Origin: an uncultured Candidatus Peribacteria bacterium
GTDB lineage: Bacteria > Patescibacteriota > Gracilibacteria > UBA1369 > 2-02-FULL-48-14
DNA: 36,838 nt
Assembly (NCBI GenBank): GCA_964533115.1
Contig: CAZHKJ010000001.1
Location: forward strand, 1-36,838
Direction: 5' to 3'
Below are positions 2 to 28,269 of this stretch, piece by piece. Within the stretch, counting starts at the first letter, position 1. The number at the start of each line of letters is the position of its first letter. Under the pieces are notes generated by a model, which worked only from the letters and a program-made list of their open reading frames with translations, searched no databases and had not been told where the DNA came from. Made by a program: the position numbers and the translations under genes.

Positions 2-3000
2 TTTTTTGCGAGCCTTTTGCCCATGGCTCCCCTCACGGAGGCGCTTCAGATTGTAGGGAGTGAAGCCATCTTGAACGAAAACCCGGGAGGAGGGCTTTCA
101 GAACTGCGTGAAGTCGATGCTCTAGAGACCCGCTATGGGCTGGTCGCCATTTTAGTGGATGAAAATACATGGAAAGGAGTCAGCAGTAGTTCCGGCCCTT
201 TCTCCTTTTTGGGGAACACCGCTTTATCCAACTCCATTGTAACCTATGCACAGGATCTTCAATCGGCACTTCCTTGGACCAAAACCATCATTCTGACTGT
301 TTCAGAAGAAGATGGCCCCCCTGAGATTCAAAAACTGCTGGAGCAATTTTATTATGAAGGCAATCCAAATGATTCAGACCCTACAAAACTCACTGGAGTT
401 GTATTGATTGGTGACGTGCCCTTGCCCGTGGTGAACAAAAAGGGCTACCGCTTCATTTCCCTGCTCCCCTACACCGACTTTGAGGATCCTTCCTATGTCT
501 TTGATGAGACCACTGAAGATTTCCTGCCCAATCTTGGAGCTCAAGACTTGCAGGCTGAAATTTGGAATGGAGTGATTGTTCCTCCTGTAGATGGCCAAGA
601 AGGGATTGATCTTTTGGCTTCCTATTTCCAGAAAAATCATGCTTTTCATCAGGGTGAGGAGGAGTACACAAGCTTTAATCAAAAGAGCTTTATTGCTGAT
701 TTTGTAACAGAAGCTCACACTTTAAATGCGGTCTCTTTTGATGCCTATACTCGCTACACCCAGCTGTGGGAAGAATTTGCTTACTCTCGCTACAGCAACG
801 ATTTGGTGGAAGATGTTTTCACTCAAATGCAGAGCACCATCGACGCGGGCGATCAGTTGGACAACGACTTTGATGGACTCTATGACGAAGAAGCTCTAAA
901 TGGAATCGACGATGATGGAGACGGACTGGTGGATGAGGACATTGGCGATGGATTTTTTGGAATTGATAATGATGGCGACTGTTGGGCTCTTCCTGAATTC
1001 AGTCGTGACAGCAATGGAGATGGGACTCCTTGCAGTGGAGGCGTTTTAAACGCAATGGGAGATGATTGGGAGGAACGTCCCGATAATGGCGTGGATGAAG
1101 ATGCTTTTAATGACAATAATAACGATCGATATTGGGTGCTCCCCATTATTCCCACCGGAAGCGAATGGGAAGACCGTTTGGTGGATGAAGATCCTCCCGG
1201 AGATAGTAATGGAGATGGCTGTGCGGGGATTTGTGGAGTAGATGATAATGGAGATGCGCAGGATAGTGATGGAGATGGTTACGTGGATGGACTGGAGAAA
1301 GTTTTGGGAACCGACCCTTACGATGACCGCCGCCCCTGGGCTTCGATTAAAGTCTTCACTAATGGAACGGGGAATCCATGGTCTTCCTTGCTACCGGGTG
1401 ATTTTGCTACTGCGGAAGAAGCCACGGCTTGGTGGGCGGAAGGCTTCACCGATCAATTTTATTGGGGTTTATACGAAAGCCCCACTTGTATGAGTGGGGG
1501 TGTTTATCGTTCCGAATGGGATGATGATGAAGATGCTTTGTGTGAGGAAGATGGATCCACGGAAGATCGTTTATGGGCCGATGTGTATGGAAGTCCTTAT
1601 CCTGGAGTCTGCGCCTACAACGATGCCGATTGTGACGGACAAATTGATGAAGATCCCATTGGATTACAATCTCGGGGGCTTTTTGAAGATTTGCCTGACC
1701 TACAAGCTCGCTCTATTCTCCAGGGTTTAACAAAAAAATATGCGGAACTCTTTGCTCAACCTCAAGGGGTTTGGAATCGCTTGGTGAATAACACGGGGCG
1801 ATACGAAGCTCAAGTACTGCAGTCCGATGCTAGTGTCCAGAATGATTATGACACTCCTGTGTCTTTAATTTCCAAAAAAGATGCCTATACCATTCAGATT
1901 CTTAGAAGTTTTAATGATCGTTTTGAAAGTCTCACTCAAGAGTTGATTGAGGATGAAGATTTAGCCCTAGAAATTCCTGTGATCGGCCTCTTGGAAATCG
2001 CTGGATCTTACACGGTTACCATTGAAAACTCAGATGGTGAGCTGGAAGAAAGCGAGGCCCTTGCGGTGTGTGATCCCGGCCTCAATAGCGATAATGCTGA
2101 TTCTTGTTTGCAATTTTTAAACTCCGGTTCAAATGACCGTGCACTGGGGAGCAGTATGCCCCATGATTCTGTTTCAGAATTTGTGGGGAAGAATGCGGTG
2201 GAAGATGTGTATGTCGCCGGTCAGAATTGGAGTGAAGTGGAGGATGTTCGAGAGTGTAGCTTGTTTGCCGGTACTTATGAAGAAGGTGGGCAATTGGCTC
2301 AATTCAATACCATGTACAGTAGTGATCAAGCGGATTTAAATTTGGGAGAGGTGAAAGAAATTAAAAACTGCGTGCCTGAATTTGCCAGTTATTTGGGCGA
2401 TATTCCCGAGCTCTGTAGTACGGCGACTGCGTACGGAGATATTCGTGACCTTGGAGGGGCGATTTCGGCGGAAGAAATCGTCAATCGCTTTGGGGGGGAT
2501 GTCGACACTTATGCTTCGGCTTGGGAAGTGGGCCCCGAAGCGTGTTATGAATTTAGAGAGTTCAAAACCTATGATGTCTATTTGTCTATTCATGGAGATT
2601 TTAACGATTGGCTCAGTGAAAAATTGCGTAAATTTCGTAAAAATACCGATGGTTCCGATGCCGAATATGAGGAGTTTTTAGAAGAGGTGGAAGAGAAACG
2701 TAACAGTTATGGCACGCGGCCCGATGAAGTGACTTTACGTAAAAATTTTAGTGAATTGGATATTTTCTCAAAAGACCCCAGCATTACTTATACGGTCGTC
2801 GATATGATGAAGGATTTAGGCTACAGCGCAGCCAGCAATGATGATATCGACACTTTTATTGCCTTGTATGATGGGGACCTTATCACCATTGATGATCCTC
2901 AATATGGCAGCGGAACCGAAAACATTTCCCGCTTGGAACTGATTTTGTATCGTGCTTACGTGACGGAAGATGGAGAGTCTTTTAGCTTTGATAAGGAGGA

Positions 3001-6000
3001 AGCCAAAGTCCTTTCTTCGATCTATTTACACAATGAGCCACGAGACGTGGTGCTCAATGCCATGGCAGAAACTCAGGCTTCGCCGAATATCCCTGTGGAT
3101 GCCACTCGGCGCATGGTCTTTATCGATCAATCTTCGACGGCACAAACTTTGAATTTTATTGATGTTTTTGAAGCTGAAAATCTAGAAGATGTGGAAGCTC
3201 AGCTCAGTACTTTAGCCAACGCCGTAGAAAACATTGAGGGTGCTTCCAATTTAGGAGGGGAGGTGGAAGATTTTATGGATGAAATCAATCTGGATCAATT
3301 GAGCGATGCTTTAAATTGGTATCGGATGAGTATTGATGAAAAACACAGTTATATTTTGAGTCACTACTTGGGCGATGACGAAGCCGTTTCATCCAAAGCT
3401 CGTGACGGATACGAAATGGCCTACATCATTGCCGATGGGAGTGCTGATGAAATCATGTTTGCTTTCAATGGAGACTCTAAAAACATGATCGAAGGAGATT
3501 TGGAATTTAAATATCCAGATGAGTTGGAGAGAGCCCTGATTCTTGCTGACGAAGAAGATGAAGCCAGTGAAGCCGCTGAAAGCATCAGCTCCCTGAGCAA
3601 CACCACTCCCATTGAATTGAAGGATTGGTTCCCTGCGGTGGTGGAATGGGTGGATGAGATCAAAGACTCTAGCAATCGGCTCACGGCCTATGGCGTTAAT
3701 GGGGCCACTTGTGGAGATAGCTCTGATTTTTCTTCTCAAGCATCGGGAGATTTAAATAGCGATGGAGTTCCTGACGGAGCGGAGTCCAGTGTAAGCCTTA
3801 AACTCAGCAGCGAGGATTTCAATACGCTTCAGCCCAATGGTGATGTCTATACGGTTAGCGTGAGCGCGCTGAATGGAGAGGGTTCTCTCAATTATTATGA
3901 CTCTTATACGGAAGTCAGTTTAGAAATTGTTTCTGGGGAAGACAGTATCTCCATTGGAGGAAGCCAAGTTTTGCCCCTCAGCGGTGGGATTGCTACTTTT
4001 TCTTTATTCAGTCTTGATCCAGGCTCTTTTAGCCTACGAGCCACCCTCGTGAATCGTAGCGATATTTATGACTCAAATACTTTAAGTGGAAGTGTGGTGG
4101 AGAAAATCATTAAAGTGACCAGCTTTGTTCAAGAAACGATAAGCAGTGAGGTGGTCAATAATGAACCCAGTTCGCGTATTGAAGTCAAAGATTCGTTCGG
4201 CTCCATTGTTGCTGTTTTGGACCCCGAAACAGGGGCTCTGGATTTACGTGAGGCCATTGCCGTTTTAAAAGAAGCCACTCCTAGCCTCCCCACCCGGATC
4301 AGCATTCAAAGTACGGAAGGAGAAATCTACAGTGTTTTCTTTCTTATCCCTAGTGAAAAAAGGGTTTCCATTGGAGATGGTTTTGCGGGTGTTTTTGTGA
4401 ACACCGTAGCCGAGAATGCAGGCACTGCGCTGGCGGAAAATGGCATCGCCCTGGAAGTGGACGGGCTAGAAATGGGCCTTGTGACGGGCCTAGGGCAAAT
4501 AGCGTTAGCGGAAGGCTACCGTTTAGCCTTTGAAAATCCGGAAGAAATCAACTTGTATGCCCCGCTTAGGATTCTAGATGCGGAAGCTAACCCTTTATTC
4601 ACCGTAGAAATTAAAGATTCCTTTACAGAAGGCTCTTTAGTGCCTGCTTCGGATCTTTATGAAGACTATTTTTCTTTAAATGAAAATCCCCGCTTTAGTG
4701 CTAGGCTCCTCAAGATCTTTGAGCTGCCCAAAGCGTGGGCGGAAACAATGATTGCAGATACGGATAGTGATCTTTTAGATGACTTGGAAGAATGGCTTAT
4801 TGGCACTGAGTACCGCACCGCCGATACGGACGGGGATGCTTACAAAGACGGCGAAGAGATTTTTTCAGGTTATGATCCTTTATCTGGGAATGGAGAAAAA
4901 CTGTTCACTGATATCGATGCCAGTCATGTGGCTTATTATGATTTGGCCAGCTTGTATGTGCGTGGCGTGATCAAAGGTTATCAGGATGGAAGCTTTAAGC
5001 CGGATAATCCTATCACTCGTGAAGAATTTTTGAAGATTGATCTTGGAGCCATTTGTAAAGCTTGTGATAACTATGAATCGACTTATGAAAATGCCCTGCT
5101 TTCCCTCTACAATCAAGACCCTTTCCCGGATACCAATTTCAATCCAGAATTGCTGGCTTGTGTGGCCGAAGCAAAGACCTCTGGTATTGTTTCGGGTTAT
5201 GCGGGCGGTGATGCAGTGGGTTACTATCTTCCCACTCAAAACATCAGCCGTGCCGAAGCCACTAAAATCTTAGTAGAAACGGCCGGGCTGCCGACTCGAA
5301 CTCCCTCTGCGGATGAAGCTTGGTATGCCGGTTATGTCGAAACGGCTCAGTCCTATAAGCTCTTCCCCGATGGAGTCAGCCCAACAACAGAATGGTTGGG
5401 GGCTGCGATTACTCGTATGGAATTCGTGATGATGGCGGTGAATTTGGTGGAAGCAAAAGATTGTCGAGCCGTGGACAGTGATGCGGATGGACTGAGTGAC
5501 ACGGAAGAGACGGTGCTCTTTGGAACGGATCCTCAAAATCCCGATACTGATAATGGAGGCATAAACGATTGGGATGAAATGGTTCGAGGAACGGATCCAC
5601 TCAATAGCACTGATGACTTCCCTATTCCTGCGAATAATCTGGACTCAGAAGATTTTTCAAACTATGGCGCTTATGACCACTCGCCCGGCCTTTATTCTGT
5701 TTCAGATCAAGCGGATTACGGCAGTGTTTCGAGCACGAGTGGAGTCCTTTCCACTGAGATGAATCTTTATACTAGTGAAGTGGCTGCTGATGGACGTTCT
5801 ACACTCATGGTGCGCGCGGAAATTCGTGATCAAAATGATGATATTTATGTGGACGACAATAGCAGTCAAATTGAATTTATCCTTTCCAACGATGAGTATG
5901 GAGTTTTGGAGTCCAACACCGTTTTGGTTCAAAATGGAATCGCCGAAACAAGTTTTCTTTCCAGCCAAAATGCAGGCGAGCTCACGATCTCCGCTCAATT

Positions 6001-9000: not shown

Positions 9001-12000
9001 TGGGGTTTCTTTGGAAGGAAACGGCTCGGGAGAACTGATTGTTTTTTACTCGGATGGGACTTATGAGGAAACTTTGGAAGAAGGCCTGTTCGGGACTGGC
9101 CTTGGAGCTCAAATCATAGAGCACGTGAATTATGAGCGTAAAAATTATTCTTCTTCCAACCCCGACTATGAAGAAGCCTATGACACCACGCAAGCCAGTC
9201 CCCTGGAAGATGCGGATGGCGATGGGATCCCTGACTTTATGGGGGGCATGGATGAAGAATTAGGAGTTCCTGTCCCCAACACTGGCTATGACATTGTCTC
9301 TGAAGTTTTGGGCGGAACGGATGAAGATAGCAATGGCTATTACTCGACCGAAGAAATGTTCAGCAGTGATAATGATTCCGATAATGACGGCCTTTACGAT
9401 ACAGTGGATGACTTTGAGGCTCTTGGGAATTTATTGCTCGATCCGAGTTTGGATTTTGAGCTTGAAGAGGATGAGGTCTCCCTCAGTGAGGAGGGCCTTG
9501 AACTGGAGCTTCAGTTGGAGATTTTAGATGAGAGTATTGCAGGTTTAACCGATGAGATTGAAGATATTGTTTCGATGTTCAGCTGTAACGGGGCTTGCTT
9601 GGCCTTGCCGGGAAGCGTTGCCTTTTTGGCCCCCGGTCCCTACCACGATCCATTTACGGGAGCGATTCTTGGCTTTGACCCAGGTACGCCTATTTTTGGA
9701 TTAATGCCCTATCCTCCCACCTTTGTTTGTACCGGGCAACAATGTTATGGCGCTCAAGCGATGCGTATGTATCTGGCCCCCACCACCACGTTAGGCTTAG
9801 GTTTAGCCGTCTGTGTGGCTCCTTACCCGGTTGGAAAATGCTGGGCTTTCAATATTCCTCTCTTACAAGTTTTGAGTGTTTGTGATGCCCTGAATGGATT
9901 TATTGCCGATGGCCTTTCCAAGGCCAATGCTTTTGCGACTTCCGGTACGAGCATCGCTTTTCAGGCGAACAGCATGAGTAGCTCCGGTACTAATCCCAGT
10001 GGTTTATCAAGTGCGCTCCTAGGCAACTACAGCCCTCCTAGTTCGGTCAATACCAATATTCAAGTGCCTGGCTTCCCCTCTGTCTTTACCGAATGGTGGA
10101 GAGCTCAAAAAGAAGAGTTCTTCAAAATGATGGATTTGCCGGACCTGACCTTTATTTACCCCGATCCCAGTAGTATTGGCTCTAACTTTAACGATGTTCA
10201 ACTGGATCAAACGGCTAAAGTTGAAGAGCTTCCCAACGGTGTTTTAGGTTTAGAATCTGTTTTAAACTATGTGCATGCTCTTCCTCTCATTGATGTAAAA
10301 CCTGAAAAAGTATACGTTCATTATCCTGCTATAACGGATGAGGAAATCTTATTGATTCAGCAAGATTTCGGCGCTTGGGTCCAAGATACCAAAACTAAGT
10401 GGGGCGTTTTTAAAGAACAATTTGAGCTGAGAAAAGCCAAAAATGAGGTGAGTGCGGCTGAACAAGAAATCTTTAATGAACTGGAAGCCACGGTGCAAGA
10501 AGCAATCACCGCTGTGGAAGCGAATATGTCTATATTAGAGAGCTATAAAGAAGTCCCCTATGAACTTCTTGAGCTGCGTAACATGCAAGCGGAATACGCT
10601 AAAGTGATCATTTGTTACTTAGACGCTATTCTAGATTTTACGGCAATTTATCTCAATGAAAACATGCAGAGGATTGAAGCTTGGGCTCAATTTGTTGTTG
10701 ATTTGCGTGAAATTGTGGATGGCTGGCAATTACTGATTGATCTGTCGGCTGACTTTATGGACTCCTGTGATAAATGCACCAATCAACGTTTCAGTGGGCT
10801 TCAATTGCTGTTCAGTTTGTTTGTCTTCATGCCCGAATTCCCCGTGGTTGAATTGCCGAAATTGCCTGACATCGTTGTGGATGTTTCTCACATTCAAGCG
10901 GGGGTCGATATTGTTTGGCCCGACCTTCAATTTATACCCGATCGTCTCAATATTCCTGAGCTCCCTCGGCTCGAATTCCCTGAAGCTAGCCTCAATACCG
11001 ATTTGAACGTAGACCTAGATATTACCATTCCTTTGCTTCCGGAATTTGATTTTGATCTTGAACTTCCCGCTCTACCTCCACTCACTCTACCCCAACTTCC
11101 CAGCTTACCTCCTCCTCCTGCCGTTCCTGAGCTGGATCCCAGTTTAGAGGCTTCGCTCAATGTGGCTAGCTCTGTTTTACGCCTGGTTTGTATCATTCGT
11201 GCGGGGTTCATTCCCACCGATGAAATGATGCTCAAAACACGTATCGAAGAAATCACCGAGCGGCCCGGGGGCGTTGTCCTTCCTTCCGACATTGCGACTA
11301 CGGTTGAGTGGCCTGCTTTTCATTTCGATTTCCTCAAACGTGTAGAAGTCACCACCTATTTGAATTTGAATGCCAATTTCTCCCCCTTATTTGATCTTGT
11401 TCAAAATTTTGCTGAGCAAACGGAATCTTTGAGTACAGATTTCACAGGAGGCCTAGGTGGAGACTTACAAGATTTAGCGGATGTTCTGGAAGCTCTGTCT
11501 GCTCCCACTCAAAACATTGACCTGGAACTTGATGTAGAAGGAAATGTGGAAATTGAAACCAATGATTCTAATGAGGAGACCAGCTCCCTTGACCCTGCCA
11601 TGCAAGTGGCTGCTCAATACATTAATGATCCTCTTGTAGCGGAGCGTTTAATGGCTTTGCAAAAAATGATGGAAACGCTGCAAGTGGAAGTGGATGATTG
11701 GGCGGAAACTCTGCCTGAAGACATCACTTTGGTGGCCACGGAGCGTGAACTGACCCCCGATGATCCTTTGCTTCATCGTTACGATTCCATTGCCCTTGAA
11801 GGCAACTTAGACTCTGAATTTTTGAGGAGTATTTCGGGAACTCCACTAGAAGGAGTCGCTCTTTTGCGTGATTCTTTGCTGAGCTATGTTGACGATTTTG
11901 AAGATGAAAATGCGCGCTTGGCTCATATGGACGACCTTTCTTTCTACAATGCCATTTCAAGCCGTTCAGTAGAAAGTCCTACGGTATTTGCCAGTGATTC

Positions 12001-15000
12001 AGCGGAGGGCTATTCCACGGCAACGGAATGGAACTTGGGGGCGGATTTAGAAGCTCTTGAGGGTTGGTATTCTGACGACCTGATTCTCGCTTCTGAATCG
12101 GACTTGCCTAGTCAACTGGAAGGAATCAATTATGGAGGCGAGGTTCAAGCCCTCAATAATGGCTTTTATCTTTATGATGCTGAAGAGAGTGTGAGTACTC
12201 GTTTAACTCAATACACTCAAGAAGCCAATCAAAGTTCTCATATTTTGTTTATGGATTTAGATGGAGATGGAGATGAAGACGTGGTTTATTCCATGGGTTC
12301 GGATGTTTATATTAAAGAAAATCACACTGAAGAAGCCAAGCTTGCTTATGTGGTTGAAGATCCTGGCTTTGCCTCATTGAGCGAGCTTGTCCCTGAGGAG
12401 GATAATATGAAAAATCTTCAATTAGGCCGTAATGAATATGAAGAGGTGGCTTGGTCTTTCCGTTCGGAGGACCGTGCGGTGGGTTATGACTTTTTCCTTT
12501 ATGATTCTTTGGATGCTCAAGAAGTCGACCCTGACTCAAATGTGAAACAACTTCTGCTCTTAACGAATGCCCATCCTTCCCCGCTGGACTTGGCAGAGAT
12601 TCCTGACTCGACGGAGGTTCCCCTTCCGGATTTTTCGATCAGCCGTCTGGTCGCTACTGACGTGAGAGGAGATGTGATATTAAAAAATGCGATCAGTCGA
12701 GTGCTCATGTCCTCCAATGGAGAGATTGAAATCGCTGAAGCCATCACTCTTCAAACGACGGAATCCTCACGCTTTACTCTCACTCGTGGAGATTCAGATC
12801 TTTCTTTTGATGTGCCAGCTTATACGGTTTTAGAATTTGGGGCTACTCAGGATCGAACGATTCGCTTAGAAAGTGGCGAAGCCTTTTTGCTGGATAACTC
12901 TGTAATATTGGACGAACAAAATTTGGAGGAAGGAATGATGGTGCTCCCTCAAGAATTACTTTCTTTGGAAAGTACTCGTGCGGAGGCTCTGCTCCAAACA
13001 AGTGAAGGTGCCCTGATCGCTCTTGATAATGAAGAGAGCTTTGTGATGGATCAACTTCTCAATCCTCAAAACCCTACCGCTCAAGTGGAAATTGGCAACG
13101 GGGCGTATTATGTAACAGGTCGTGCTCTTTATGCGAATGGAACGGCCTCCACCCTCTCCGATAATATTTTATTGAACCCTCAAATTTGCAGCGATAAATC
13201 TGCTCCTTTTGTGATTGTTAATAATGGCAATACTAGTGTCGACTTGGCCATTTATTCCACCATGACTTTATCCGCAGAGGATTCTTTTGATAGCGACAGC
13301 CAAATCATTGATGCGTACTGGGATTTAGATTCCCAAATAGATGCGGATGGCGATGGTATTTTGAACAATGATGAAGAAAGAATTGGCCTGAGCGCCGAAG
13401 TCGGGCCTTACGACAACCTGGATCCTCGCACGGTTACGGTTTACCTCACCGATGCGGTTGGCAACCTGGCTAGCTCAGAAATAACGGTGAATGTTTACGT
13501 GCCCGAACTTGAAATCATCGATGCCACCTCTACTTTGGTGAAGGGAAATACCAGACCAGCCAGTCCGAATCTTCCCTTCCATCTCATTCGAGAACGTGAC
13601 GGTGCCCTCACGGATCTTGGATCTTATATCACGGATGAGGAAGGACAATTTGAATTGATGATGGAAGACAGTACGCTGATTGCCATTTATGATCCTAGTG
13701 GAGCCGTGATTGCCGAGTTCAATCCTCAAACCAAACAAATCCTTGTTCGTGATGAGGCGTATGAAGTGACTGCCCTTGCGGCGGACTCCAATTGGCCTTC
13801 GCATTTAATGGTCTACGAAAAAAGCACCGGTATTGTTATGGGGAGTTTCATTTTTGTAACCGAAAGTGGTTTGCCCATCACCCGTTTAGGGGAGCCCCTT
13901 GCGAACTATGATTTGAGTAGCTTCAATCGTTTGAGTGTCCACTCCGTGAGCGACTCCGATGGCTATGAGTTTAGTCTCAATTCCATCACGGCTCGGGATG
14001 AGGAAGGGGCTTTGGATTTACTCATCACCAATAATGGAAACATCAATATTTTTGATGACCGTTATTCACTCAAGCATCGTGAAGCAGATTCTTTAGAGGA
14101 GCATCTGATTTTAGAAATTTATGATGGAGAAACTCTGGAGCTGGAAATCTGGCCCGGTAGCGCTTTGGATCTTTACCTAGAAAGTACGGATGACTTAGCC
14201 CTGCCCGATTCCGTTCTACGAGGTCCATATGATTCTTTGTCGGCCGATACTCGTTTATACTTCGAAGACATTGCTGTGGATGATCCTTTGTACGAAGACA
14301 TTGCTGAATTGGTGGAGAGAGGCGTGATTGAAGGCTATGAGATGGATGGAGAGTCTTACTTCAAACCTGATAACGACATCAATCGTGCAGAATTCGCGAA
14401 AATCATTTTGAATATTCTTTGTATTGTCGCACGTGATGAAGCTTATTTGTCTCCTGCCGCCTTCAGTGACATTGGCGATCCTGAATTATGGTATTACCCC
14501 TATACCAAAGAGGCTTCTTTAGGAGGCTTAATCACGGGTTACTTGGGTGAAAAAAATGCCAATGGATTAGCTCCTTTCAAACCTGGAAATACCATCACTC
14601 GTGCAGAGGCCGTTAAAATCATGATTGAAGCTCTTGAACAACAGGGCGCTATCACGCTCCCCACCGACTTGTATGGCGAACCTTGGTATGAACCTTATAT
14701 CGAAATCGCTCAAGATCTTAGCCCTTATTTAACGGATGAATTCACCAGCGGCAATGCGACTTACATTTTAACACCAGAAGAAGCTGCGGCGCCCAATAAA
14801 ACTTTGACTCGTTATGAATTTGTAGAAATGAGTGTACGTGTTCTTCAGGCTTATAATTGTTTTGCCTTAGATAGCGACAAAGATGGTCTCTTTAACTATG
14901 AAGAAGAAACTCTTCATGGCAGCGACCCTTATAATCCAGATACGGATGCGGGAGGAGTGGATGATGGAACAGAAGTGACTCGTGGCAGTGATCCTTTAAA

Positions 15001-15211
15001 CATTGCAGATGATTTTGAAGATGCGATGAGTGAACTTCTTCCTGGTATTTATGCCGTGAGAGAAACGTGTAGAATCTGCCCCTGCCCTTCACAAGTGGAC
15101 TGGAAAGCGGATCTATTAACGGGAGACTCTATTTTTGCTATCATCCAAGATGAACTCGATCGTATTTTTGAAGTCAGCAACACGGTTCAAATAACTCAAC
15201 CCACGCCATGA
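2..15211 (+). CDS. Giant multidomain cell-surface/adhesin-like protein, 5'-partial (at least 5064 aa)
   Basis: Frame 2 has no stop from nt 2 to the TGA at 15209-15211. The ORF track starts it at TTG 17, but the five codons upstream are also open and the visible N-terminus has no signal peptide, so the true start probably lies outside the window. It contains SLH, TSP3-like, Big/PKD-like and FG-GAP motifs (listed as sub-features below). Confidence 0.9.
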   Translation, partial: FFASLLPMAPLTEALQIVGSEAILNENPGGGLSELREVDALETRYGLVAILVDENTWKGVSSSSGPFSFLGNTALSNSIVTYAQDLQSALPWTKTIILTVSEEDGPPEIQKLLEQFYYEGNPNDSDPTKLTGVVLIGDVPLPVVNKKGYRFISLLPYTDFEDPSYVFDETTEDFLPNLGAQDLQAEIWNGVIVPPVDGQEGIDLLASYFQKNHAFHQGEEEYTSFNQKSFIADFVTEAHTLNAVSFDAYTRYTQLWEEFAYSRYSNDLVEDVFTQMQSTIDAGDQLDNDFDGLYDEEALNGIDDDGDGLVDEDIGDGFFGIDNDGDCWALPEFSRDSNGDGTPCSGGVLNAMGDDWEERPDNGVDEDAFNDNNNDRYWVLPIIPTGSEWEDRLVDEDPPGDSNGDGCAGICGVDDNGDAQDSDGDGYVDGLEKVLGTDPYDDRRPWASIKVFTNGTGNPWSSLLPGDFATAEEATAWWAEGFTDQFYWGLYESPTCMSGGVYRSEWDDDEDALCEEDGSTEDRLWADVYGSPYPGVCAYNDADCDGQIDEDPIGLQSRGLFEDLPDLQARSILQGLTKKYAELFAQPQGVWNRLVNNTGRYEAQVLQSDASVQNDYDTPVSLISKKDAYTIQILRSFNDRFESLTQELIEDEDLALEIPVIGLLEIAGSYTVTIENSDGELEESEALAVCDPGLNSDNADSCLQFLNSGSNDRALGSSMPHDSVSEFVGKNAVEDVYVAGQNWSEVEDVRECSLFAGTYEEGGQLAQFNTMYSSDQADLNLGEVKEIKNCVPEFASYLGDIPELCSTATAYGDIRDLGGAISAEEIVNRFGGDVDTYASAWEVGPEACYEFREFKTYDVYLSIHGDFNDWLSEKLRKFRKNTDGSDAEYEEFLEEVEEKRNSYGTRPDEVTLRKNFSELDIFSKDPSITYTVVDMMKDLGYSAASNDDIDTFIALYDGDLITIDDPQYGSGTENISRLELILYRAYVTEDGESFSFDKEEAKVLSSIYLHNEPRDVVLNAMAETQASPNIPVDATRRMVFIDQSSTAQTLNFIDVFEAENLEDVEAQLSTLANAVENIEGASNLGGEVEDFMDEINLDQLSDALNWYRMSIDEKHSYILSHYLGDDEAVSSKARDGYEMAYIIADGSADEIMFAFNGDSKNMIEGDLEFKYPDELERALILADEEDEASEAAESISSLSNTTPIELKDWFPAVVEWVDEIKDSSNRLTAYGVNGATCGDSSDFSSQASGDLNSDGVPDGAESSVSLKLSSEDFNTLQPNGDVYTVSVSALNGEGSLNYYDSYTEVSLEIVSGEDSISIGGSQVLPLSGGIATFSLFSLDPGSFSLRATLVNRSDIYDSNTLSGSVVEKIIKVTSFVQETISSEVVNNEPSSRIEVKDSFGSIVAVLDPETGALDLREAIAVLKEATPSLPTRISIQSTEGEIYSVFFLIPSEKRVSIGDGFAGVFVNTVAENAGTALAENGIALEVDGLEMGLVTGLGQIALAEGYRLAFENPEEINLYAPLRILDAEANPLFTVEIKDSFTEGSLVPASDLYEDYFSLNENPRFSARLLKIFELPKAWAETMIADTDSDLLDDLEEWLIGTEYRTADTDGDAYKDGEEIFSGYDPLSGNGEKLFTDIDASHVAYYDLASLYVRGVIKGYQDGSFKPDNPITREEFLKIDLGAICKACDNYESTYENALLSLYNQDPFPDTNFNPELLACVAEAKTSGIVSGYAGGDAVGYYLPTQNISRAEATKILVETAGLPTRTPSADEAWYAGYVETAQSYKLFPDGVSPTTEWLGAAITRMEFVMMAVNLVEAKDCRAVDSDADGLSDTEETVLFGTDPQNPDTDNGGINDWDEMVRGTDPLNSTDDFPIPANNLDSEDFSNYGAYDHSPGLYSVSDQADYGSVSSTSGVLSTEMNLYTSEVAADGRSTLMVRAEIRDQNDDIYVDDNSSQIEFILSNDEYGVLESNTVLVQNGIAETSFLSSQNAGELTISAQLVFGSLPSNDQAIHVYAGEPARIEITSESTVLPIGGDSFSDAQVTLYDPYNNLANYGSYSVTFESEDLVLLGLKDEDASIPGIQITVQNGQIPFRILSDLEEGLDTVTVYLTEQPDISDRLSMESIEGMRLLVELSDPYMFAGSAGTQAVQIQVVDALGLPVSDFQGEVSVGLSDADYGTVDQSTFSLISGQGTTVLTAGTLAGTGSILVESMGMETGSSPLEVKPSDTVELRIRTQDGATRLKADSVQKFYVEAYDAYGNLVSTDSSTSGTLRLTEATAPYGTLSRNSFVLNQGQAEFSVLLGTVSGLLNIVASSSGVTAGTWGGEVNYFVTGEEMKEVNPQMLYANVLGAAFGDVTQEDYIGGWMLFNGKTQAVSSLVSEPLPKKPIASVDAEGTISLAQDGLIAQSVVGAGSSLPMVLQWHAYPEQRLMAELFFVLGEEEENPGFNAVLSSSDSAYVLEEQEGASYVLKEDSVVIARIRADGQIVLLDSSYYLVGNDYASGLSLALMKNTEAILRVDYALPQEDVTLLDKDFNLENWSTLNPGLYVKSSPHSEFDFMYTPTGNSSNNPQGLVLTDPNALLPEDLRPSMGYTTLDNAEEDGTVGFEGENKNMLLFSAGNTAGDSNRFYVSEVGILLGDPSIQLPTENELNSLGFTDDIGSTVYAGSEDIFGMVDIDYNGDGQMDVLLVYEDGRIEVLQNYESPNRLNARGALLQIENGIRSIDKGDFNADGLSDLVIVTEESCYAEEMCLYLYENIGGGFVAQNLSFNEINAQPEQVEVMDLNNDGYDDLVLSDVDMQLYVVWNSEGTLSSVDSIENFGLNVDGSQNLYADLAVYYDGLSGGSVSLSVPSRSEDELFSSLGFAHANSASVNSLLRVEKTMSDSSGGRVKMDDTLNVELRLSNLSSASINELYFSDSIGSFFSFNPDGFTCSSCEGIDLSSAELVDGNATRPFIYGPFNLAAGSEVSFSYPLSVAELPTLSLMVGNDIYSDYVDDDYADIGVSLEGNGSGELIVFYSDGTYEETLEEGLFGTGLGAQIIEHVNYERKNYSSSNPDYEEAYDTTQASPLEDADGDGIPDFMGGMDEELGVPVPNTGYDIVSEVLGGTDEDSNGYYSTEEMFSSDNDSDNDGLYDTVDDFEALGNLLLDPSLDFELEEDEVSLSEEGLELELQLEILDESIAGLTDEIEDIVSMFSCNGACLALPGSVAFLAPGPYHDPFTGAILGFDPGTPIFGLMPYPPTFVCTGQQCYGAQAMRMYLAPTTTLGLGLAVCVAPYPVGKCWAFNIPLLQVLSVCDALNGFIADGLSKANAFATSGTSIAFQANSMSSSGTNPSGLSSALLGNYSPPSSVNTNIQVPGFPSVFTEWWRAQKEEFFKMMDLPDLTFIYPDPSSIGSNFNDVQLDQTAKVEELPNGVLGLESVLNYVHALPLIDVKPEKVYVHYPAITDEEILLIQQDFGAWVQDTKTKWGVFKEQFELRKAKNEVSAAEQEIFNELEATVQEAITAVEANMSILESYKEVPYELLELRNMQAEYAKVIICYLDAILDFTAIYLNENMQRIEAWAQFVVDLREIVDGWQLLIDLSADFMDSCDKCTNQRFSGLQLLFSLFVFMPEFPVVELPKLPDIVVDVSHIQAGVDIVWPDLQFIPDRLNIPELPRLEFPEASLNTDLNVDLDITIPLLPEFDFDLELPALPPLTLPQLPSLPPPPAVPELDPSLEASLNVASSVLRLVCIIRAGFIPTDEMMLKTRIEEITERPGGVVLPSDIATTVEWPAFHFDFLKRVEVTTYLNLNANFSPLFDLVQNFAEQTESLSTDFTGGLGGDLQDLADVLEALSAPTQNIDLELDVEGNVEIETNDSNEETSSLDPAMQVAAQYINDPLVAERLMALQKMMETLQVEVDDWAETLPEDITLVATERELTPDDPLLHRYDSIALEGNLDSEFLRSISGTPLEGVALLRDSLLSYVDDFEDENARLAHMDDLSFYNAISSRSVESPTVFASDSAEGYSTATEWNLGADLEALEGWYSDDLILASESDLPSQLEGINYGGEVQALNNGFYLYDAEESVSTRLTQYTQEANQSSHILFMDLDGDGDEDVVYSMGSDVYIKENHTEEAKLAYVVEDPGFASLSELVPEEDNMKNLQLGRNEYEEVAWSFRSEDRAVGYDFFLYDSLDAQEVDPDSNVKQLLLLTNAHPSPLDLAEIPDSTEVPLPDFSISRLVATDVRGDVILKNAISRVLMSSNGEIEIAEAITLQTTESSRFTLTRGDSDLSFDVPAYTVLEFGATQDRTIRLESGEAFLLDNSVILDEQNLEEGMMVLPQELLSLESTRAEALLQTSEGALIALDNEESFVMDQLLNPQNPTAQVEIGNGAYYVTGRALYANGTASTLSDNILLNPQICSDKSAPFVIVNNGNTSVDLAIYSTMTLSAEDSFDSDSQIIDAYWDLDSQIDADGDGILNNDEERIGLSAEVGPYDNLDPRTVTVYLTDAVGNLASSEITVNVYVPELEIIDATSTLVKGNTRPASPNLPFHLIRERDGALTDLGSYITDEEGQFELMMEDSTLIAIYDPSGAVIAEFNPQTKQILVRDEAYEVTALAADSNWPSHLMVYEKSTGIVMGSFIFVTESGLPITRLGEPLANYDLSSFNRLSVHSVSDSDGYEFSLNSITARDEEGALDLLITNNGNINIFDDRYSLKHREADSLEEHLILEIYDGETLELEIWPGSALDLYLESTDDLALPDSVLRGPYDSLSADTRLYFEDIAVDDPLYEDIAELVERGVIEGYEMDGESYFKPDNDINRAEFAKIILNILCIVARDEAYLSPAAFSDIGDPELWYYPYTKEASLGGLITGYLGEKNANGLAPFKPGNTITRAEAVKIMIEALEQQGAITLPTDLYGEPWYEPYIEIAQDLSPYLTDEFTSGNATYILTPEEAAAPNKTLTRYEFVEMSVRVLQAYNCFALDSDKDGLFNYEEETLHGSDPYNPDTDAGGVDDGTEVTRGSDPLNIADDFEDAMSELLPGIYAVRETCRICPCPSQVDWKADLLTGDSIFAIIQDELDRIFEVSNTVQITQPTP
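134..655 (+). other. Alpha/beta region resembling the gingipain (peptidase C25)-like fold; catalytic residues not identified
   Basis: The pattern YGLVAILVDE ... EIQKLLEQFYYEG ... LTGVVLIGDVPLPVV ... LLPYTDFED ... DFLPN ... EIWNGVIVPP resembles the C25 layout (LLvGD..iP, sD..Y, pd..vGR.p). This is similarity by eye only, and no clear His/Cys dyad is visible. Confidence 0.3.
842..1657 (+). repeat. Asp-rich calcium-binding-type repeats (DxDxDG / IDDDGDGLVDED class)
   Basis: Repeated motifs include DNDFDGLYDEE, GIDDDGDGLVDEDIGDG, GIDNDGDC, DSNGDGTPC, GVDEDAFNDNNND, LVDEDPPGDSNGDGC, GVDDNGDAQDSDGDGYVDGLEKVLGTDPYDD and DADCDGQIDEDP. Confidence 0.6.
4757..5617 (+). other. TSP3-like repeat, three SLH domains, then TSP3-like repeats (wall-anchor module 1)
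   Basis: DTDSDLLDDLEE..TADTDGDAYKDGEE is followed by three SLH-like units: FTDIDASHVAYYDLASLYVRGVIKGYQDGSFKPDNPITREEF, FPDTNFNPELLACVAEAKTSGIVSGYAGGDAVGYYLPTQNISRAEATKIL and AWYAGYVETAQSYKLF...AAITRMEFVMMAVNL. These are followed by DSDADGLSDTEETVLFGTDPQNPDTDNGGINDWDEMVRGTDPLNSTDD. Confidence 0.75.
5768..6960 (+). repeat. About four tandem bacterial Ig-like (Big_1/invasin-type) domains
   Basis: There are roughly 95-100 aa units with a recurring pattern: AADGRSTLMVRAEIRDQNDD...VQNGIAETSFLSSQNAGELTISAQ; DSFSDAQVTLYDPYNNLANYGSYSVTF...VQNGQIPFRIL; AGTQAVQIQVVDALGLPVSDFQGEVSV...LISGQGTTVLTAGTLAGTGSILVES; and DSVQKFYVEAYDAYGNLVSTDSSTSGTL...LNQGQAEFSVLLGTVSGLLNIVASS. A further Big-like unit lies at about 3770-4070. 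Confidence 0.6.
8021..8425 (+). repeat. FG-GAP/VCBS (integrin-alpha-like) repeats
   Basis: Motifs are VDIDYNGDGQMDVLLVYEDGRIEVLQN, GDFNADGLSDLVIVTEE...LYLYENIGGGF and VMDLNNDGYDDLVLSDVDMQLYVVWNSEG. An additional unit, FMDLDGDGDEDVVYSMGSDVYIKEN, lies near 12250-12320. Confidence 0.65.
9572..11290 (+). other. Unassigned hydrophobic, Cys/Pro/Gly-rich central module with helical and Pro-rich segments
   Basis: The module starts SMFSCNGACLALPGSVAFLAPGPYHDPFTGAILGFDPGTPIFGLMPYPPTFVCTGQQCYGAQAMRMYLAPTTTLGLGLAVCVAPYPVGKCWAFNIPLL. It continues with a helical stretch, a TM-like segment GLQLLFSLFVFMPEFPVV (about 10790-10850), the tract LPALPPLTLPQLPSLPPPPAVPELDP, and then VLRLVCIIRAGFIP. It matches no domain family I can name. 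Confidence 0.5.
13199..13504 (+). other. PKD-like Ig domain
   Basis: SAPFVIVNNGNTSVDLAIYSTMTLSAEDSFDSDSQIIDAYWDLDSQIDADGDG...RTVTVYLTDAVGNLASSEITVNVYVP follows the PKD pattern (D.DG.I..Y.WD...DG ... V.LTVTD..G...V.V). Confidence 0.45.
14261..15013 (+). other. Three SLH domains followed by TSP3-like repeats (wall-anchor module 2)
   Basis: The SLH-like units are FEDIAVDDPLYEDIAELVERGVIEGYEMDGESYFKPDNDINRAEFAKIIL, FSDIGDPELWYYPYTKEASLGGLITGYLGEKNANGLAPFKPGNTITRAEAVKIMI and EPWYEPYIEIAQDL...KTLTRYEFVEMSVRVL. They are followed by DSDKDGLFNYEEETLHGSDPYNPDTDAGGVDDGTEVTRGSDPLNIADD. Confidence 0.75.
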
Positions 15212-25917: not shown

Positions 25918-25960
25918 GAGGAGCTCGTGATTAAGTCTAGCCCTTGAGGAAATCGATCCG

Positions 25961-25966
25961 TATAAT
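25961..25966 (+). promoter_or_regulatory. Perfect TATAAT -10 box 6 nt upstream of the SDR start codon
   Basis: The sequence is ccgTATAATagggctATG. The ATG is at 25973, and no convincing -35 box is visible. Confidence 0.35.
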
Positions 25967-25972
25967 AGGGCT

Positions 25973-28069: not shown

Positions 28070-28269
28070 ACGTGCAGTATAGCACAAAAATATCTATTTT
28101 ACGCAGGCAAGTATCGTTCTACAAACTCTCTTTTTATAGGGTCGAGTTCTGGTCCGTTTAAACCACAATTGTTTTTGATTGTTTGAACTGTCTGTGTATC
28201 CGAGATCTCCAAACGGCCCTTCAGCTGGACCATTTCAAACAACTCGTGTGGAAGGACCGTACATATACA

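What the first reader, a model, noticed from the sequence alone, without database searches (positions are those of the whole stretch)
2..15211. One uninterrupted ORF of at least 15.2 kb (5,064+ aa) fills 41% of the window and is still open at the 5' edge
Frame 2 has no stop from nt 2 to the TGA at 15209-15211. The visible N-terminus has no signal peptide and the upstream codons are open, so the gene is larger than what is seen here. The product is a mosaic of adhesin and wall-anchor modules: Asp-rich Ca-binding repeats, SLH, TSP3-like, Big/PKD-like and FG-GAP. These are interspersed with long stretches (for example about 1700-3700, 7000-7950 and 11300-13150) that I cannot assign to any family. 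Genes this large are rare in bacteria, and this one sits among ordinary housekeeping genes in what looks like a streamlined genome.
Basis: partly seen in the sequence, partly recalled or inferred. Interest (0 to 1): 0.75.

Follow-up and report, generated by a model that had tools for sequence, protein, structure and literature searches.

The report
Giant wall-anchored surface protein gene
The 15.2-kb reading frame is a real, almost complete gene for a ~555-kDa secreted, cell-wall-anchored surface protein of a tiny symbiotic (Peribacteria-type CPR) bacterium; it belongs to a large but uncharacterised family of similarly huge proteins, so it is typical for this lineage rather than a one-off oddity.

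Summary
Observation confirmed: frame 2 is open from nt 2 to the TGA at 15209-15211 (5,069 codons). No other frame in this span holds an ORF longer than 135 aa.

The gene is not much larger than what is visible. The window starts inside the signal peptide, and orthologs show only about 21 codons are missing.

The product is acidic (pI 4.05). Pfam recognises about 16% of it: TSP3 Ca-binding repeats, two SLH triplets, invasin/Big_1-like Ig domains and an FG-GAP propeller. The rest matches no Pfam, NCBIfam, PHROG, PDB sequence or Foldseek entry.

It is still not an orphan. An exhaustive HMMER search finds 422 cluster representatives, mostly 3,500-6,000 aa single ORFs with the same module order, a Cys/Pro-rich core and a C-terminal CxxCPC tail. 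The closest genomes are Candidatus Peribacteria MAGs, which use the standard genetic code.

The gene heads a conserved five-gene block with four secreted proteins that each carry a conserved Cys near the C-terminus. In orthologs it lies directly downstream of a type IV pilus assembly cluster.

Best reading: a Sec-exported, SLH-anchored host-contact or envelope fibre. The attachment function is inferred, not shown. Verdict: real, a new member of a known kind, moderate interest.

The parts
2..15211 (+). Giant ORF: 5,069 codons plus TGA. The visible product is 554.5 kDa, pI 4.05, net charge -671. About 21 N-terminal codons lie off the window's 5' edge.
   Evidence: colinear with orthologs
2..43 (+). 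C-terminal part of the Sec signal peptide (aa 1-14, FFASLLPMAPLTEA). The cleavage site after TEA is inferred.
   Evidence: Alignment with full N-termini of L002, L003, L009 and P0002-P0007
119..871 (+). Family-specific N-terminal alpha/beta domain (aa about 40-290), with invariant motifs YGLVAILV, GDVPLPVV.K.G, PYTDF and YF.KN. No known family or fold.
   Evidence: Found in 122/162 family sequences; 60% mean column identity; no PDB profile hit; AF2 pLDDT 52.7 and Foldseek not significant
848..1681 (+). Asp-rich, Cys-containing Ca-binding repeat region (aa about 283-560; DNDGDG/TSP3-like). Variable in length between orthologs.
   Evidence: TSP3_bac at aa 421-440; DxDxDG motifs; teneurin-4 match to the DNDGDG motif, E 0.78, not significant; large indels in A1
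1679..4696 (+). Unassigned region (aa about 560-1565) with no Pfam, NCBIfam or PDB match. Conserved among closer relatives only. By eye, aa 1240-1360 looks Ig-like; this was not verified.
   Evidence: module counts 50/162 and 17/162
4694..5620 (+). TSP3 - 3xSLH - TSP3 module 1 (aa about 1565-1873), an internal duplicate of the C-terminal module. TRAE-like motifs: TREE1672, SRAE1749, TRME1804. This module is absent from orthologs L009 and L003.
   Evidence: SLH 57.6 bits against a cutoff of 20.8, TSP3_bac 36.1 bits; duplication up to 56% identity; motifs; absence in L009/L003
5699..6991 (+). Array of Ig-like domains (aa about 1900-2330; Invasin_D3/Big_1-like).
   Evidence: Invasin_D3 E 4.4e-7 and 2.1e-4, Big_1 E 3.9e-4, all below gathering score; weak internal repeat 2147-2218 vs 2248-2322
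6989..7921 (+). Family-conserved region with no known domain (aa about 2330-2640).
   Evidence: 119/162 family sequences; no Pfam hit
7919..8491 (+). FG-GAP / integrin-alpha-like beta-propeller repeats (aa about 2640-2830). One of the best-conserved segments.
   Evidence: FG-GAP_3 67 bits in 3 stretches, FG-GAP 32.7 bits; integrin alpha hits with the family profile; 57-63% identity to five close orthologs, 38-41% to two distant ones
9539..11491 (+). Family-defining Cys/Pro-rich core (aa 3180-3830). Motifs: C.GGC...P, APTTTLGLG.A.C, IPGFP..EW, DLPD..IYPDP, SCDKCTNQR, PKLPDIV.D.S.IQAG..I.WPD, LP.LP.LPPPP..P. Includes a confidently predicted long helical hairpin (aa about 3430-3590).
   Evidence: 422 relatives in the exhaustive HMMER search; conservation map from 127 sequences; no PDB sequence or profile hit in the core; AF2 pLDDT 64.5 overall and 80-91 in the hairpin; Foldseek PDB and BFVD best E about 1 and 0.3
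11489..14236 (+). Unassigned family-conserved region (aa about 3830-4745). Contains one weak FG-GAP-like repeat at aa about 4055-4095 and a PKD-like stretch near aa 4400-4480 (weak).
   Evidence: (105 and 122 of 162)
14234..15016 (+). 3xSLH - TSP3 module 2 (aa about 4745-5005); the duplicated block begins near aa 4770. TRAE-like motifs: NRAE4794, TRAE4866, TRYE4936. Universal in the family and the most conserved segment; the likely wall anchor.
   Evidence: SLH 47.9 bits, TSP3_bac 22 bits (below the 25-bit cut-off); PDB SLH proteins SpaA 6cwc and Sap; 129/162; 41-68% identity to all orthologs; motifs
15014..15208 (+). Conserved C-terminal tail (aa about 5005-5069) with a CxxCPC motif (ETCRICPCPS...GDSIFAIIQDE). 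No known family.
   Evidence: Same motif in L002, L003, P0013, P0014 and most full-length members; 97/162
15208..15798 (+). Downstream gene 1 (196 aa), secreted. Its start overlaps the giant gene's stop (ATGA). Conserved C-terminal CYAxxC.
15783..16406 (+). Downstream gene 2 (207 aa), secreted, with a conserved penultimate Cys.
16397..18184 (+). Downstream gene 3 (595 aa), secreted. Has a conserved Cys cluster and a penultimate Cys.
18175..19263 (+). Downstream gene 4 (362 aa), secreted, with a conserved penultimate Cys. Last gene of the conserved block.

Best explanation
This is one genuine, essentially complete gene (about 5,090 codons, with about 21 missing at the window edge) from a Peribacteria/Peregrinibacteria-type CPR bacterium that uses the standard genetic code. 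It encodes a roughly 555-kDa, very acidic protein.

Proposed mechanism:
1. The protein is exported by the Sec pathway through an N-terminal signal peptide. The peptide is shown by homology; cleavage is inferred.
2. It is held non-covalently on the cell's own wall by a universal C-terminal SLH triplet and, in this organism, by a second, duplicated internal SLH triplet. The domains and their TRAE-type binding motifs are shown; binding to a pyruvylated wall polymer is inferred from what is established for SLH domains.
3. It therefore projects outward the N-terminal alpha/beta domain, Ca-binding Asp-rich/TSP3 repeats, Ig-like domains, an integrin-like FG-GAP propeller and a family-specific Cys/Pro-rich core with a long helical hairpin. 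Together these would form a long, Ca-stiffened envelope fibre that contacts other cells or the host. The attachment function is inferred from domain types, lineage biology and genomic context.
4. It is made together with four conserved secreted proteins that each carry a conserved Cys near the C-terminus. Their genes overlap head to tail with it, and they probably form a complex with it, perhaps by disulfides to the CxxCPC tail (speculative).
5. In orthologs the block lies directly downstream of the type IV pilus assembly genes (PilB-like, PilC-like, pilin), pointing to a shared cell-contact apparatus. The synteny is shown; functional coupling is inferred.
For: Gene reality: a 5,069-codon open frame, full-length colinearity with orthologs, and 422 family representatives, 237 of them at E<=1e-30, most 3,500-6,000 aa.

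Single-ORF status: shown in L003, L009 (complete 1.31-Mb chromosome), L020 and 12 of 13 informative GTDB loci.

Signal peptide: present in all full N-termini.

SLH: above Pfam gathering score in both modules, matches to solved SLH wall-binding domains, and TRAE-like motifs in all six repeats.

Other modules: TSP3, Ig-like and FG-GAP.

Conserved architecture: mapped by modules on 162 sequences.

Gene block and synteny.

Taxon: the closest loci are Candidatus Peribacteria MAGs. Standard code.

Literature: Peribacteria genomes encode large extracellular proteins thought to act in attachment (PMC4736985). Giant membrane-localised (inferred) proteins of the CPR predator Vampirococcus are thought to mediate host recognition (PMC8080830). 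Peregrinibacteria is named first among the bacterial phyla most enriched in >5,000-aa proteins, all uncharacterised (PMC11573180).
Against: No experiment and no expression data were available. About 84% of the protein, including the best-conserved core and the N-terminal domain, has no recognisable family or fold, so the real activity could lie there and be something other than adhesion. Both AF2 models are of low or moderate confidence (pLDDT 52.7 and 64.5). The wall ligand for SLH (pyruvylated SCWP, CsaB) was not checked in this genome. In L003 and L009 a terminator-like hairpin precedes the giant gene, so it is probably not co-transcribed with the pilus genes. The most distant family member (L019) lacks the pilus and four-gene context. 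The upstream pilus cluster is not visible in this window.
Confidence: 0.6

Rival explanations
1. It is mainly a structural envelope component, a giant S-layer or S-layer-associated scaffold that builds or spaces the cell surface, rather than a host-binding adhesin.
For: SLH triplets are the hallmark anchor of S-layer proteins, and the best PDB matches are S-layer proteins SpaA and Sap. Architecture is strongly conserved and the gene sits at one fixed locus in the loci examined. [quoted passage not shown]
Against: Typical S-layer proteins are 40-200 kDa with one terminal SLH triplet and a self-assembling lattice domain. This protein is 555 kDa and carries integrin-like, Ig-like and Ca-binding modules typical of adhesins. 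There is no evidence of lattice-forming domains.
Confidence: 0.2
2. It is a dedicated partner of the neighbouring type IV pilus/T2SS-like machine. Either it is a pilus-associated adhesin, or its passage through the wall depends on the pilus/pseudopilus, with the four small secreted proteins acting as adaptors.
For: Deeply conserved order PilB-like, PilC-like, pilin, giant gene, four small genes in L002, L003 and L020. A similar adjacency of giant genes to T2SS/T4P-like loci is reported in Omnitrophota (bioRxiv 10.1101/2023.11.21.568195).
Against: The giant protein and the four small proteins have ordinary signal peptides, not class III (N_methyl) pilin leaders. A terminator-like hairpin separates the pilin gene from the giant gene in L003. 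The distant member L019 has no pilus genes nearby. Synteny alone may reflect a conserved chromosomal neighbourhood next to the rplJL genes.
Confidence: 0.12
3. The long frame is an artefact: a misassembly, a collapsed repeat, or several genes fused by sequencing errors. Alternatively, it is a decaying pseudogene.
For: One ortholog (L002) has an in-frame TAA. A PhzF-like gene elsewhere in the window is split by a frameshift, so indel errors or gene decay exist in this assembly.
Against: Colinear at 42-43% identity with independent orthologs along the full length. There is only one internal duplication and it is also present in orthologs. Hundreds of single-ORF relatives of the same size exist. 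Amino-acid conservation throughout indicates purifying selection.
Confidence: 0.02
4. It is a giant contact-dependent toxin-delivery protein (Rhs, teneurin or polymorphic-toxin-like), with the unassigned regions forming a shell or effector.
For: Great length, a teneurin-like Ca-binding DNDGDG motif and a very weak PT-TG hit (E 0.12).
Against: No RHS/YD repeats or toxin domains in Pfam. The C-terminus is conserved across the family instead of polymorphic. No immunity-like small gene follows it; the four downstream genes are conserved secreted proteins.
Confidence: 0.03

Closest known systems
Large or giant extracellular proteins of CPR bacteria (Candidatus Peribacter riflensis large exported proteins, PMC4736985; Vampirococcus lugosii giant membrane proteins of 1,392-4,163 aa, PMC8080830)
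   Same: Same lineage type (CPR episymbionts or predators with about 1.3-Mb genomes). Signal-peptide-bearing, very large surface proteins with integrin/FG-GAP, PKD/Ig and DUF11-type modules, proposed to mediate attachment. Such genomes also carry type IV pili.
   Different: The Peribacter proteins described in detail are a different, Cys-rich set (about 1,655 aa, 7% Cys; this protein has 0.8% Cys). This roughly 5,000-aa family, its Cys/Pro core, its CxxCPC tail and its five-gene block are not described in those papers. Homology to the Vampirococcus proteins was not tested.
SLH-anchored surface proteins of monoderm bacteria (Bacillus anthracis Sap, Paenibacillus alvei SpaA)
   Same: Three tandem SLH repeats with TRAE-type motifs. 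Sequence matches to the solved SLH domains 6cwc, 3pyw and 6bt4.
   Different: Those proteins have one N-terminal SLH triplet and are about 10-fold smaller. Here the triplets are internal and near the C-terminus, and one is a lineage-specific duplication. The wall ligand in Peribacteria is unknown.
Giant genes of Omnitrophota (West-Roberts et al., bioRxiv 10.1101/2023.11.21.568195)
   Same: Giant genes in small-celled, probably predatory or symbiotic bacteria. The N-terminal regions largely lack identifiable domains. They lie near T2SS/type IV pilus-like loci.
   Different: The Omnitrophota proteins are described with C39/S8 peptidase domains and are followed by PilZ genes. None of this is seen here; the window's C39-like gene at 26713-27198 is a separate small gene 11.5 kb away. 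Different phylum. No sequence comparison was done.
Repetitive giant adhesins secreted by T1SS (LapA/SiiE/Bap/RTX type)
   Same: Giant, acidic, Ca-binding, Ig-like-domain-bearing surface proteins used for attachment.
   Different: Those consist of long arrays of near-identical tandem repeats and have a C-terminal T1SS signal. This protein is essentially non-repetitive, with one duplication of about 240-310 aa, has an N-terminal Sec signal, and has no T1SS genes nearby.

Membership tests
Unnamed giant-protein family of Peribacteria/Peregrinibacteria (as delimited here) | Colinear module order: signal peptide, N-terminal alpha/beta domain, Ig array, FG-GAP, Cys/Pro core, C-terminal SLH triplet, CxxCPC tail | tested here: met
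   Module mapping on 162 sequences and full-length alignment with 7 orthologs
Unnamed giant-protein family of Peribacteria/Peregrinibacteria (as delimited here) | Core motifs (C.GGC, APTTTLGLG, IPGFP, DLPD..YPDP, SCD.C.N.R, PK(L/W)PD, LP.LPPPP) | tested here: met
   All are present in the window at aa 3194-3712; near-invariant in a 127-sequence alignment
Unnamed giant-protein family of Peribacteria/Peregrinibacteria (as delimited here) | Followed by four conserved secreted genes of about 195, 215, 600 and 350 aa | tested here: met
   Window 15208-19263. Same in L003, L004, L006, L007, L009, L010, L013, L015-L018 and L020 (cut by the contig end)
Unnamed giant-protein family of Peribacteria/Peregrinibacteria (as delimited here) | Preceded by a PilB-like, PilC-like, pilin cluster | not testable with these tools
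   The window starts inside the gene and the source contig was not found in any collection. The cluster is present in L002, L003 and L020
SLH-domain cell-wall-anchored proteins | Tandem SLH repeats above the Pfam gathering score | tested here: met
   PF00395 at 57.6 and 47.9 bits against a cutoff of 20.8, at aa about 1635-1820 and 4754-4950
SLH-domain cell-wall-anchored proteins | TRAE-type ligand-binding motif in each repeat (established for Sap and SpaA; from my own knowledge) | tested here: met
   TREE1672, SRAE1749, TRME1804, NRAE4794, TRAE4866, TRYE4936
SLH-domain cell-wall-anchored proteins | The genome makes the ligand (pyruvylated secondary cell-wall polymer; CsaB) | not testable with these tools
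   Only 36.8 kb of the genome is available, and it contains no csaB-like gene
T1SS repetitive giant adhesins (RTX/LapA/Bap type) | Long arrays of tandem repeats | tested here: not met
   Chunked self-BLAST finds only one duplication and one weak Ig repeat
T1SS repetitive giant adhesins (RTX/LapA/Bap type) | Adjacent T1SS genes and no N-terminal signal peptide | tested here: not met
   The family has an N-terminal Sec signal. No ABC/MFP/TolC genes are nearby
Rhs / polymorphic toxins | RHS/YD repeats and a variable C-terminal toxin with an immunity gene | tested here: not met
   No such Pfam hits. The C-terminus is conserved family-wide
Integrin-alpha-like FG-GAP beta-propeller proteins | FG-GAP repeats forming a seven-bladed propeller | tested here: inconclusive
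   Three FG-GAP_3 stretches (67 bits) and profile hits to integrin alpha propellers. The blade number was not established.
Code-25 (UGA=Gly) Gracilibacteria/Absconditabacteria genes | In-frame TGA at sense positions, with genes fragmented under table 11 | tested here: not met
   No TGA in 5,069 codons. Housekeeping genes are intact under table 11. TGA terminates genes at ortholog-matched lengths

The most novel reading that the evidence does not exclude
The giant protein, its four partner proteins with conserved C-terminal cysteines and the adjacent type IV pilus genes together form a lineage-defining host-contact organelle of Peribacteria. In this reading the fold-less Cys/Pro-rich core, with its long helical hairpin and moderately hydrophobic conserved segments, is not a passive spacer. 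It would be an active element that engages or breaches the host envelope, for example as a conduit or membrane-inserting device for nutrient or DNA acquisition. That would make it a new kind of bacterial cell-cell interaction machine.
Probability: 0.12. Interest if true: 0.8.

Novelty: new member of a known kind. Interest (0 to 1): 0.42.

Why it matters
CPR bacteria make up a large share of bacterial diversity and appear to live attached to other cells, yet the molecules that mediate contact are almost unknown outside Saccharibacteria. This gene takes up about 1.2% of a roughly 1.3-Mb genome and is conserved as a single frame across hundreds of sequence clusters. It keeps a fixed neighbourhood of pilus genes upstream and four secreted partners downstream. 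That cost implies an important function. Delimiting the family, its invariant core motifs and its gene block gives concrete targets for metaproteomics, cryo-ET and antibody work. It also flags about 4,000 residues of conserved sequence with no known fold. In practical terms, such genes should not be dismissed as assembly errors, and fragments of them are currently labelled only 'SLH domain-containing' or 'repeat protein' in databases.

Tried and rejected
1. Whole-protein self-BLASTP gave 'no internal repeats'. This was an artefact, because off-diagonal hits are culled inside the full self-hit. Chunked BLAST revealed the SLH-module duplication.

2. The source contig could not be found. Exact look-up of the 196-aa neighbour found nothing, and EF-P matched only a 926-nt Logan contig. 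Scans of genome contigs and metagenome contigs with the N-terminal 600 aa found nothing. The true upstream sequence of this window therefore remains unseen.

3. The word-indexed homolog search performed poorly for this family. A 5,000-aa query timed out, the 1,200-aa central query gave 3 hits and the 651-aa core query gave none. The exhaustive HMMER search found 422.

4. Code 25 (UGA=Gly) was considered because homologs are labelled Gracilibacteria. It was rejected.

5. A gingipain/caspase-like (clan CD) reading of the N-terminal domain, suggested by the 'VVLIGDVPLP...HG' pattern, was dropped. The His is not conserved (N in the window, Q in P0007) and there is no Cys partner, PDB profile hit or Foldseek hit.

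6. Transmembrane helices in the core: no 19-residue window reaches a Kyte-Doolittle mean of 1.8 (maximum 1.68), and AF2 shows soluble-type helices.

7. A phage origin found no support. PHROG hits come only through the SLH region, and BFVD Foldseek was not significant.

8. Alignments A3 and A4 were too divergent for the pattern-based locus finder. A 3-sequence alignment worked.

9. Rfam and tRNA scans of the window found nothing. The promoter/terminator scan around the operon end was uninformative.
Full report

Yes. Translating frame 2 from nt 2 gives 5,069 sense codons before the first stop, TGA at 15209-15211. Frames 1 and 3 hit stops within 20 codons. No ORF in any other frame inside this span exceeds 135 aa. 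G+C is about 45% along the whole gene with no compositional break.

The visible product is 554.5 kDa, pI 4.05, with net charge -671. It is rich in Asp, Glu, Ser and Leu and poor in Lys and Arg.

**2. Genetic code and assembly integrity**

The first homologs were labelled Candidatus Gracilibacteria, and some Gracilibacteria read UGA as Gly, so I checked the code. Three results point to the standard code:
- UvrA (950 aa), LeuRS (798 aa), EF-P, RecF and FabG are all intact under table 11, and TAA, TAG and TGA are all used as stops.
- The giant frame contains no TGA at all.
- The next gene starts at the ATGA overlap and has the same length (196 aa) and the same C-terminal CYAxxC as its ortholog.

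The closest genomic relatives are Candidatus Peribacteria/Peregrinibacteria MAGs, a CPR lineage with the standard code.

Misassembly is very unlikely. The protein aligns colinearly with the ortholog in L002 over its whole length: 42% identity over 2,104 columns and 43% over 3,124 columns. It also aligns colinearly with seven full-length relatives in a multiple alignment.

**3. The 5' end**

Full N-termini of relatives are classic signal peptides:
- L002, read from the upstream in-frame ATG: MQKCTPWHIRLISSVIISSMLMGVAPVSE
- L003: MPLHSTHFFKRSFAALVLISLLSTILPINPIVEA
- L009: MRPHHSTHRIKRLVIKGFLLTFLSSLLPMGQVASA
- P0002 to P0007 are similar.

The window's first residues, FFASLLPMAPLTEA, align with the end of the hydrophobic core of these peptides. 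The invariant YGLVAILV motif follows at the same distance.

So only about 18-22 codons are missing. In L009 and L003 a terminator-like hairpin with a T-run lies just upstream of the gene.

**4. Anatomy**

Pfam recognises only about 16% of the protein:

| Domain | Position (aa) |
|---|---|
| TSP3_bac repeats | 421-440, about 1825-1870, about 4957-4979 |
| SLH | about 1635-1820 and 4754-4950 |
| Invasin_D3/Big_1-like Ig domains (below gathering score) | 1921-2013 and 2143-2218 |
| FG-GAP_3 | about 2670-2800 (67 bits); weak repeat near 4055-4095 |

NCBIfam gives nothing. PHROGs hits only through the SLH region. PDB sequences match only SLH.

My first self-comparison suggested no repeats at all. 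That was a BLAST culling artefact. Chunked BLAST shows one real duplication, aa about 1565-1873 against about 4770-5005 (TSP3, 3xSLH, TSP3; up to 56% identity), plus a weak Ig repeat. Otherwise the protein is non-repetitive, unlike RTX/Bap-type giant adhesins.

All six SLH repeats carry TRAE-type motifs. No segment reaches transmembrane-like hydrophobicity.

**5. It belongs to a large family of giants**

I ran an exhaustive HMMER search with aa 3151-4350 against 1.84 billion cluster representatives. It found 422 relatives at E<=1e-3 and 237 at E<=1e-30. The best 148 have a median length of 4,148 aa, and many are 5,000-6,000 aa.

Mapping the window's modules onto 162 family sequences shows a conserved order:
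1. signal peptide
2. N-terminal domain (122/162)
3. optional SLH module 1
4. Ig array
5. conserved unknown region (119/162)
6. FG-GAP (115/162)
7. core A and core B (129 and 151 of 162)
8. two conserved unknown regions
9. C-terminal SLH module (129/162)
10. CxxCPC tail (97/162)

The identity profile shows which segments are best conserved: the N-terminal 200 aa, the FG-GAP segment, the core (aa 3200-3800) and the C-terminal SLH module. SLH module 1 is missing from L009 and L003, so it is a lineage-specific duplicate.

Sources name these proteins only 'S-layer homology domain-containing protein, partial' or 'uncharacterized repeat protein (TIGR01451 family)'.

**6. The core and the N-terminal domain have no known relatives**

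A 127-sequence alignment of the core shows near-invariant Cys and Pro motifs. In window coordinates they are:
- C3195..C3199..P
- APTTTLGLG.A.C
- IPGFP..EW
- DLPD..IYPDP
- SCDKCTNQR
- PKLPDIV.D.S.IQAG..I.WPD
- LP.LP.LPPPP..P
- C3730..G.IP..E..LK..IE..T.RP

A family profile searched against PDB hits only the flanking propeller, SLH and (weakly) PKD parts.

AF2 with 31 sequences gives pLDDT 64.5. It predicts a confident long helical hairpin (model residues about 251-411, which is aa about 3430-3590), beta elements and a disordered Pro-rich stretch. Foldseek finds nothing significant in PDB or BFVD.

The N-terminal domain profile has no PDB hit. Its AF2 model is a low-confidence alpha/beta sandwich (pLDDT 52.7) without a significant Foldseek match.

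**7. Orthologous loci**

It is not met.
- L003 (4,350 aa), L020 (4,832 aa) and L009 (4,815 aa, on a complete 1,306,353-bp Peribacteria chromosome) are single ORFs.
- In 12 of 13 informative GTDB loci the frame is open across the whole fetched span of at least 4,800 codons.
- Exception 1: L002 has a single in-frame TAA, at the position equivalent to window aa about 2036 inside the Ig array. It gives 2,009 + 3,050 aa in the same frame.
- Exception 2: the apparent split in L005 abuts a masked N-run, so it is an assembly artefact.

**8. Genomic context**

Four genes follow the giant gene at 15208-19263 (196, 207, 595 and 362 aa), with overlapping or abutting starts.
- Each has a signal peptide and no Pfam, NCBIfam or PHROG match.
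- They are 1:1 orthologs of the four genes after the giant gene in L003 (30-37% identity) and are not detectable paralogs of each other.
- Their cysteine positions are conserved, including one within the last 1-9 residues.
- ORFs of matching sizes follow the giant gene in L004, L006, L007, L009, L010, L013, L015-L018 and L020.

After them the window, like L003, has uvrA, prsW and recF on the opposite strand.

Upstream, L002, L003 and L020 all show the same order: rplJ, rplL, two unknown genes, a PilB-like ATPase (T2SSE), a PilC-like platform (T2SSF) and one or two pilins; the giant gene follows directly in L003 and L020, and after one more 271-aa gene in L002. By synteny, the window's 5' edge therefore falls just after a type IV pilus assembly cluster.

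The most divergent member examined (L019) has a different context: a VirD4-like gene upstream, and L11, L1 and another SLH protein downstream.

**9. Interpretation**

Shown:
- a real, near-complete gene
- a Sec signal by homology
- two SLH triplets with binding-type motifs
- Ca-binding, Ig-like and integrin-like modules
- a conserved family, gene block and synteny
- Peribacteria affiliation and the standard code

Inferred:
- The protein is exported and tethered to the cell's own wall polymer by the SLH modules. The C-terminal module is the universal anchor.
- It extends as a Ca-stiffened fibre that mediates contact with other cells.
- The four partners with conserved C-terminal cysteines assemble with it.
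- The whole acts together with type IV pili.

This fits what is proposed for large extracellular proteins of Peribacteria (PMC4736985) and for the giant membrane-localised (inferred) proteins of the CPR predator Vampirococcus (PMC8080830). It also fits the listing of Peregrinibacteria first among the bacterial phyla most enriched in >5,000-aa proteins, all without functional assignment (PMC11573180).

The Cys-rich Peribacter proteins described in that genome paper are a different set (about 1,655 aa, 7% Cys).

The main rival readings are a structural S-layer-type scaffold, or a dedicated partner or substrate of the pilus machine. An artefact or a polymorphic toxin is very unlikely.

**10. Verdict**

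It is neither substantially truncated nor an isolated curiosity. It is a new member of a known kind, the giant surface proteins of CPR symbionts, and belongs to a large, well-conserved and so far undescribed family.

What is worth following up is the roughly 84% of the protein with no known fold, especially the invariant Cys/Pro core, and the conserved five-gene block next to the pilus genes. Interest is moderate (0.42).

Noticed in passing
window 15208-19263 (+): Four consecutive genes (196, 207, 595, 362 aa) with overlapping or abutting starts. All have signal peptides and no Pfam, NCBIfam or PHROG match. Each ends with a conserved Cys within the last 1-9 residues (QCYASQCITQ, AHCK, QYCL, RQCR). 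They are 1:1 orthologs in L003 and are not detectable paralogs of each other. ORFs of matching sizes follow the giant gene in more than 10 other loci.
   Followed up: partly
window 27207-27686 (-) and 27683-28087 (-): A PhzF-like gene is split into two ORFs in different frames with an ATGA overlap (Pfam profile positions 1-122 and 134-275). It is either a frameshifted pseudogene or a sequencing indel.
   Followed up: no
L002 16028-16030: The ortholog of the giant gene in GCA_943357165.1 carries one in-frame TAA, giving 2,009 + 3,050 aa in the same frame. It sits inside the Ig array, at the position of window aa about 2036. The 2,009-aa product cluster has 19 member sequences, so the stop looks real in that population. 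It could be a nonsense mutation, a two-piece gene or readthrough.
   Followed up: partly
window 35208-35711 (-), 36486-36776 (+), 26713-27198 (+): Two pilin-like genes with N-terminal methylation motifs lie about 20 kb downstream of the giant gene. A small stand-alone C39-like cysteine peptidase (161 aa) is also present.
   Followed up: no
L003 9870-10000; L009 1-70: A terminator-like G+C hairpin followed by a T-run lies immediately upstream of the giant gene, after the pilin gene in L003. This suggests the giant gene has its own promoter and is not co-transcribed with the pilus genes.
   Followed up: partly
L019 (GCA_964509985.1, CAZDZQ010000010.1) 7214-28544: The most divergent family member examined (P0153, 4,990 aa) lacks the CxxCPC tail and the usual neighbours. 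It sits between a VirD4/TrwB-like coupling-protein gene and rplK, rplA and a second 726-aa SLH protein.
   Followed up: no
L005 about 12650-12800: The apparent frameshift that splits the ortholog in this MAG coincides with a masked run of N, so it is an assembly or masking artefact and not biology.
   Followed up: yes
window aa 1565-1873 (nt 4694-5620) vs L009 and L003: The internal TSP3-SLHx3-TSP3 module is absent from two orthologs (L009 and L003) but present in the window, P0016, P0017, L002 and P0022. It is therefore a lineage-specific internal duplication of the universal C-terminal anchor module.
   Followed up: partly
window 24844-26010 (-) and 25973-26704 (+): The RecF-like ORF (GTG start as listed) and the FabG-like ORF overlap divergently by 38 nt. 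The recF start is probably further downstream than the mechanical ORF call.
   Followed up: no
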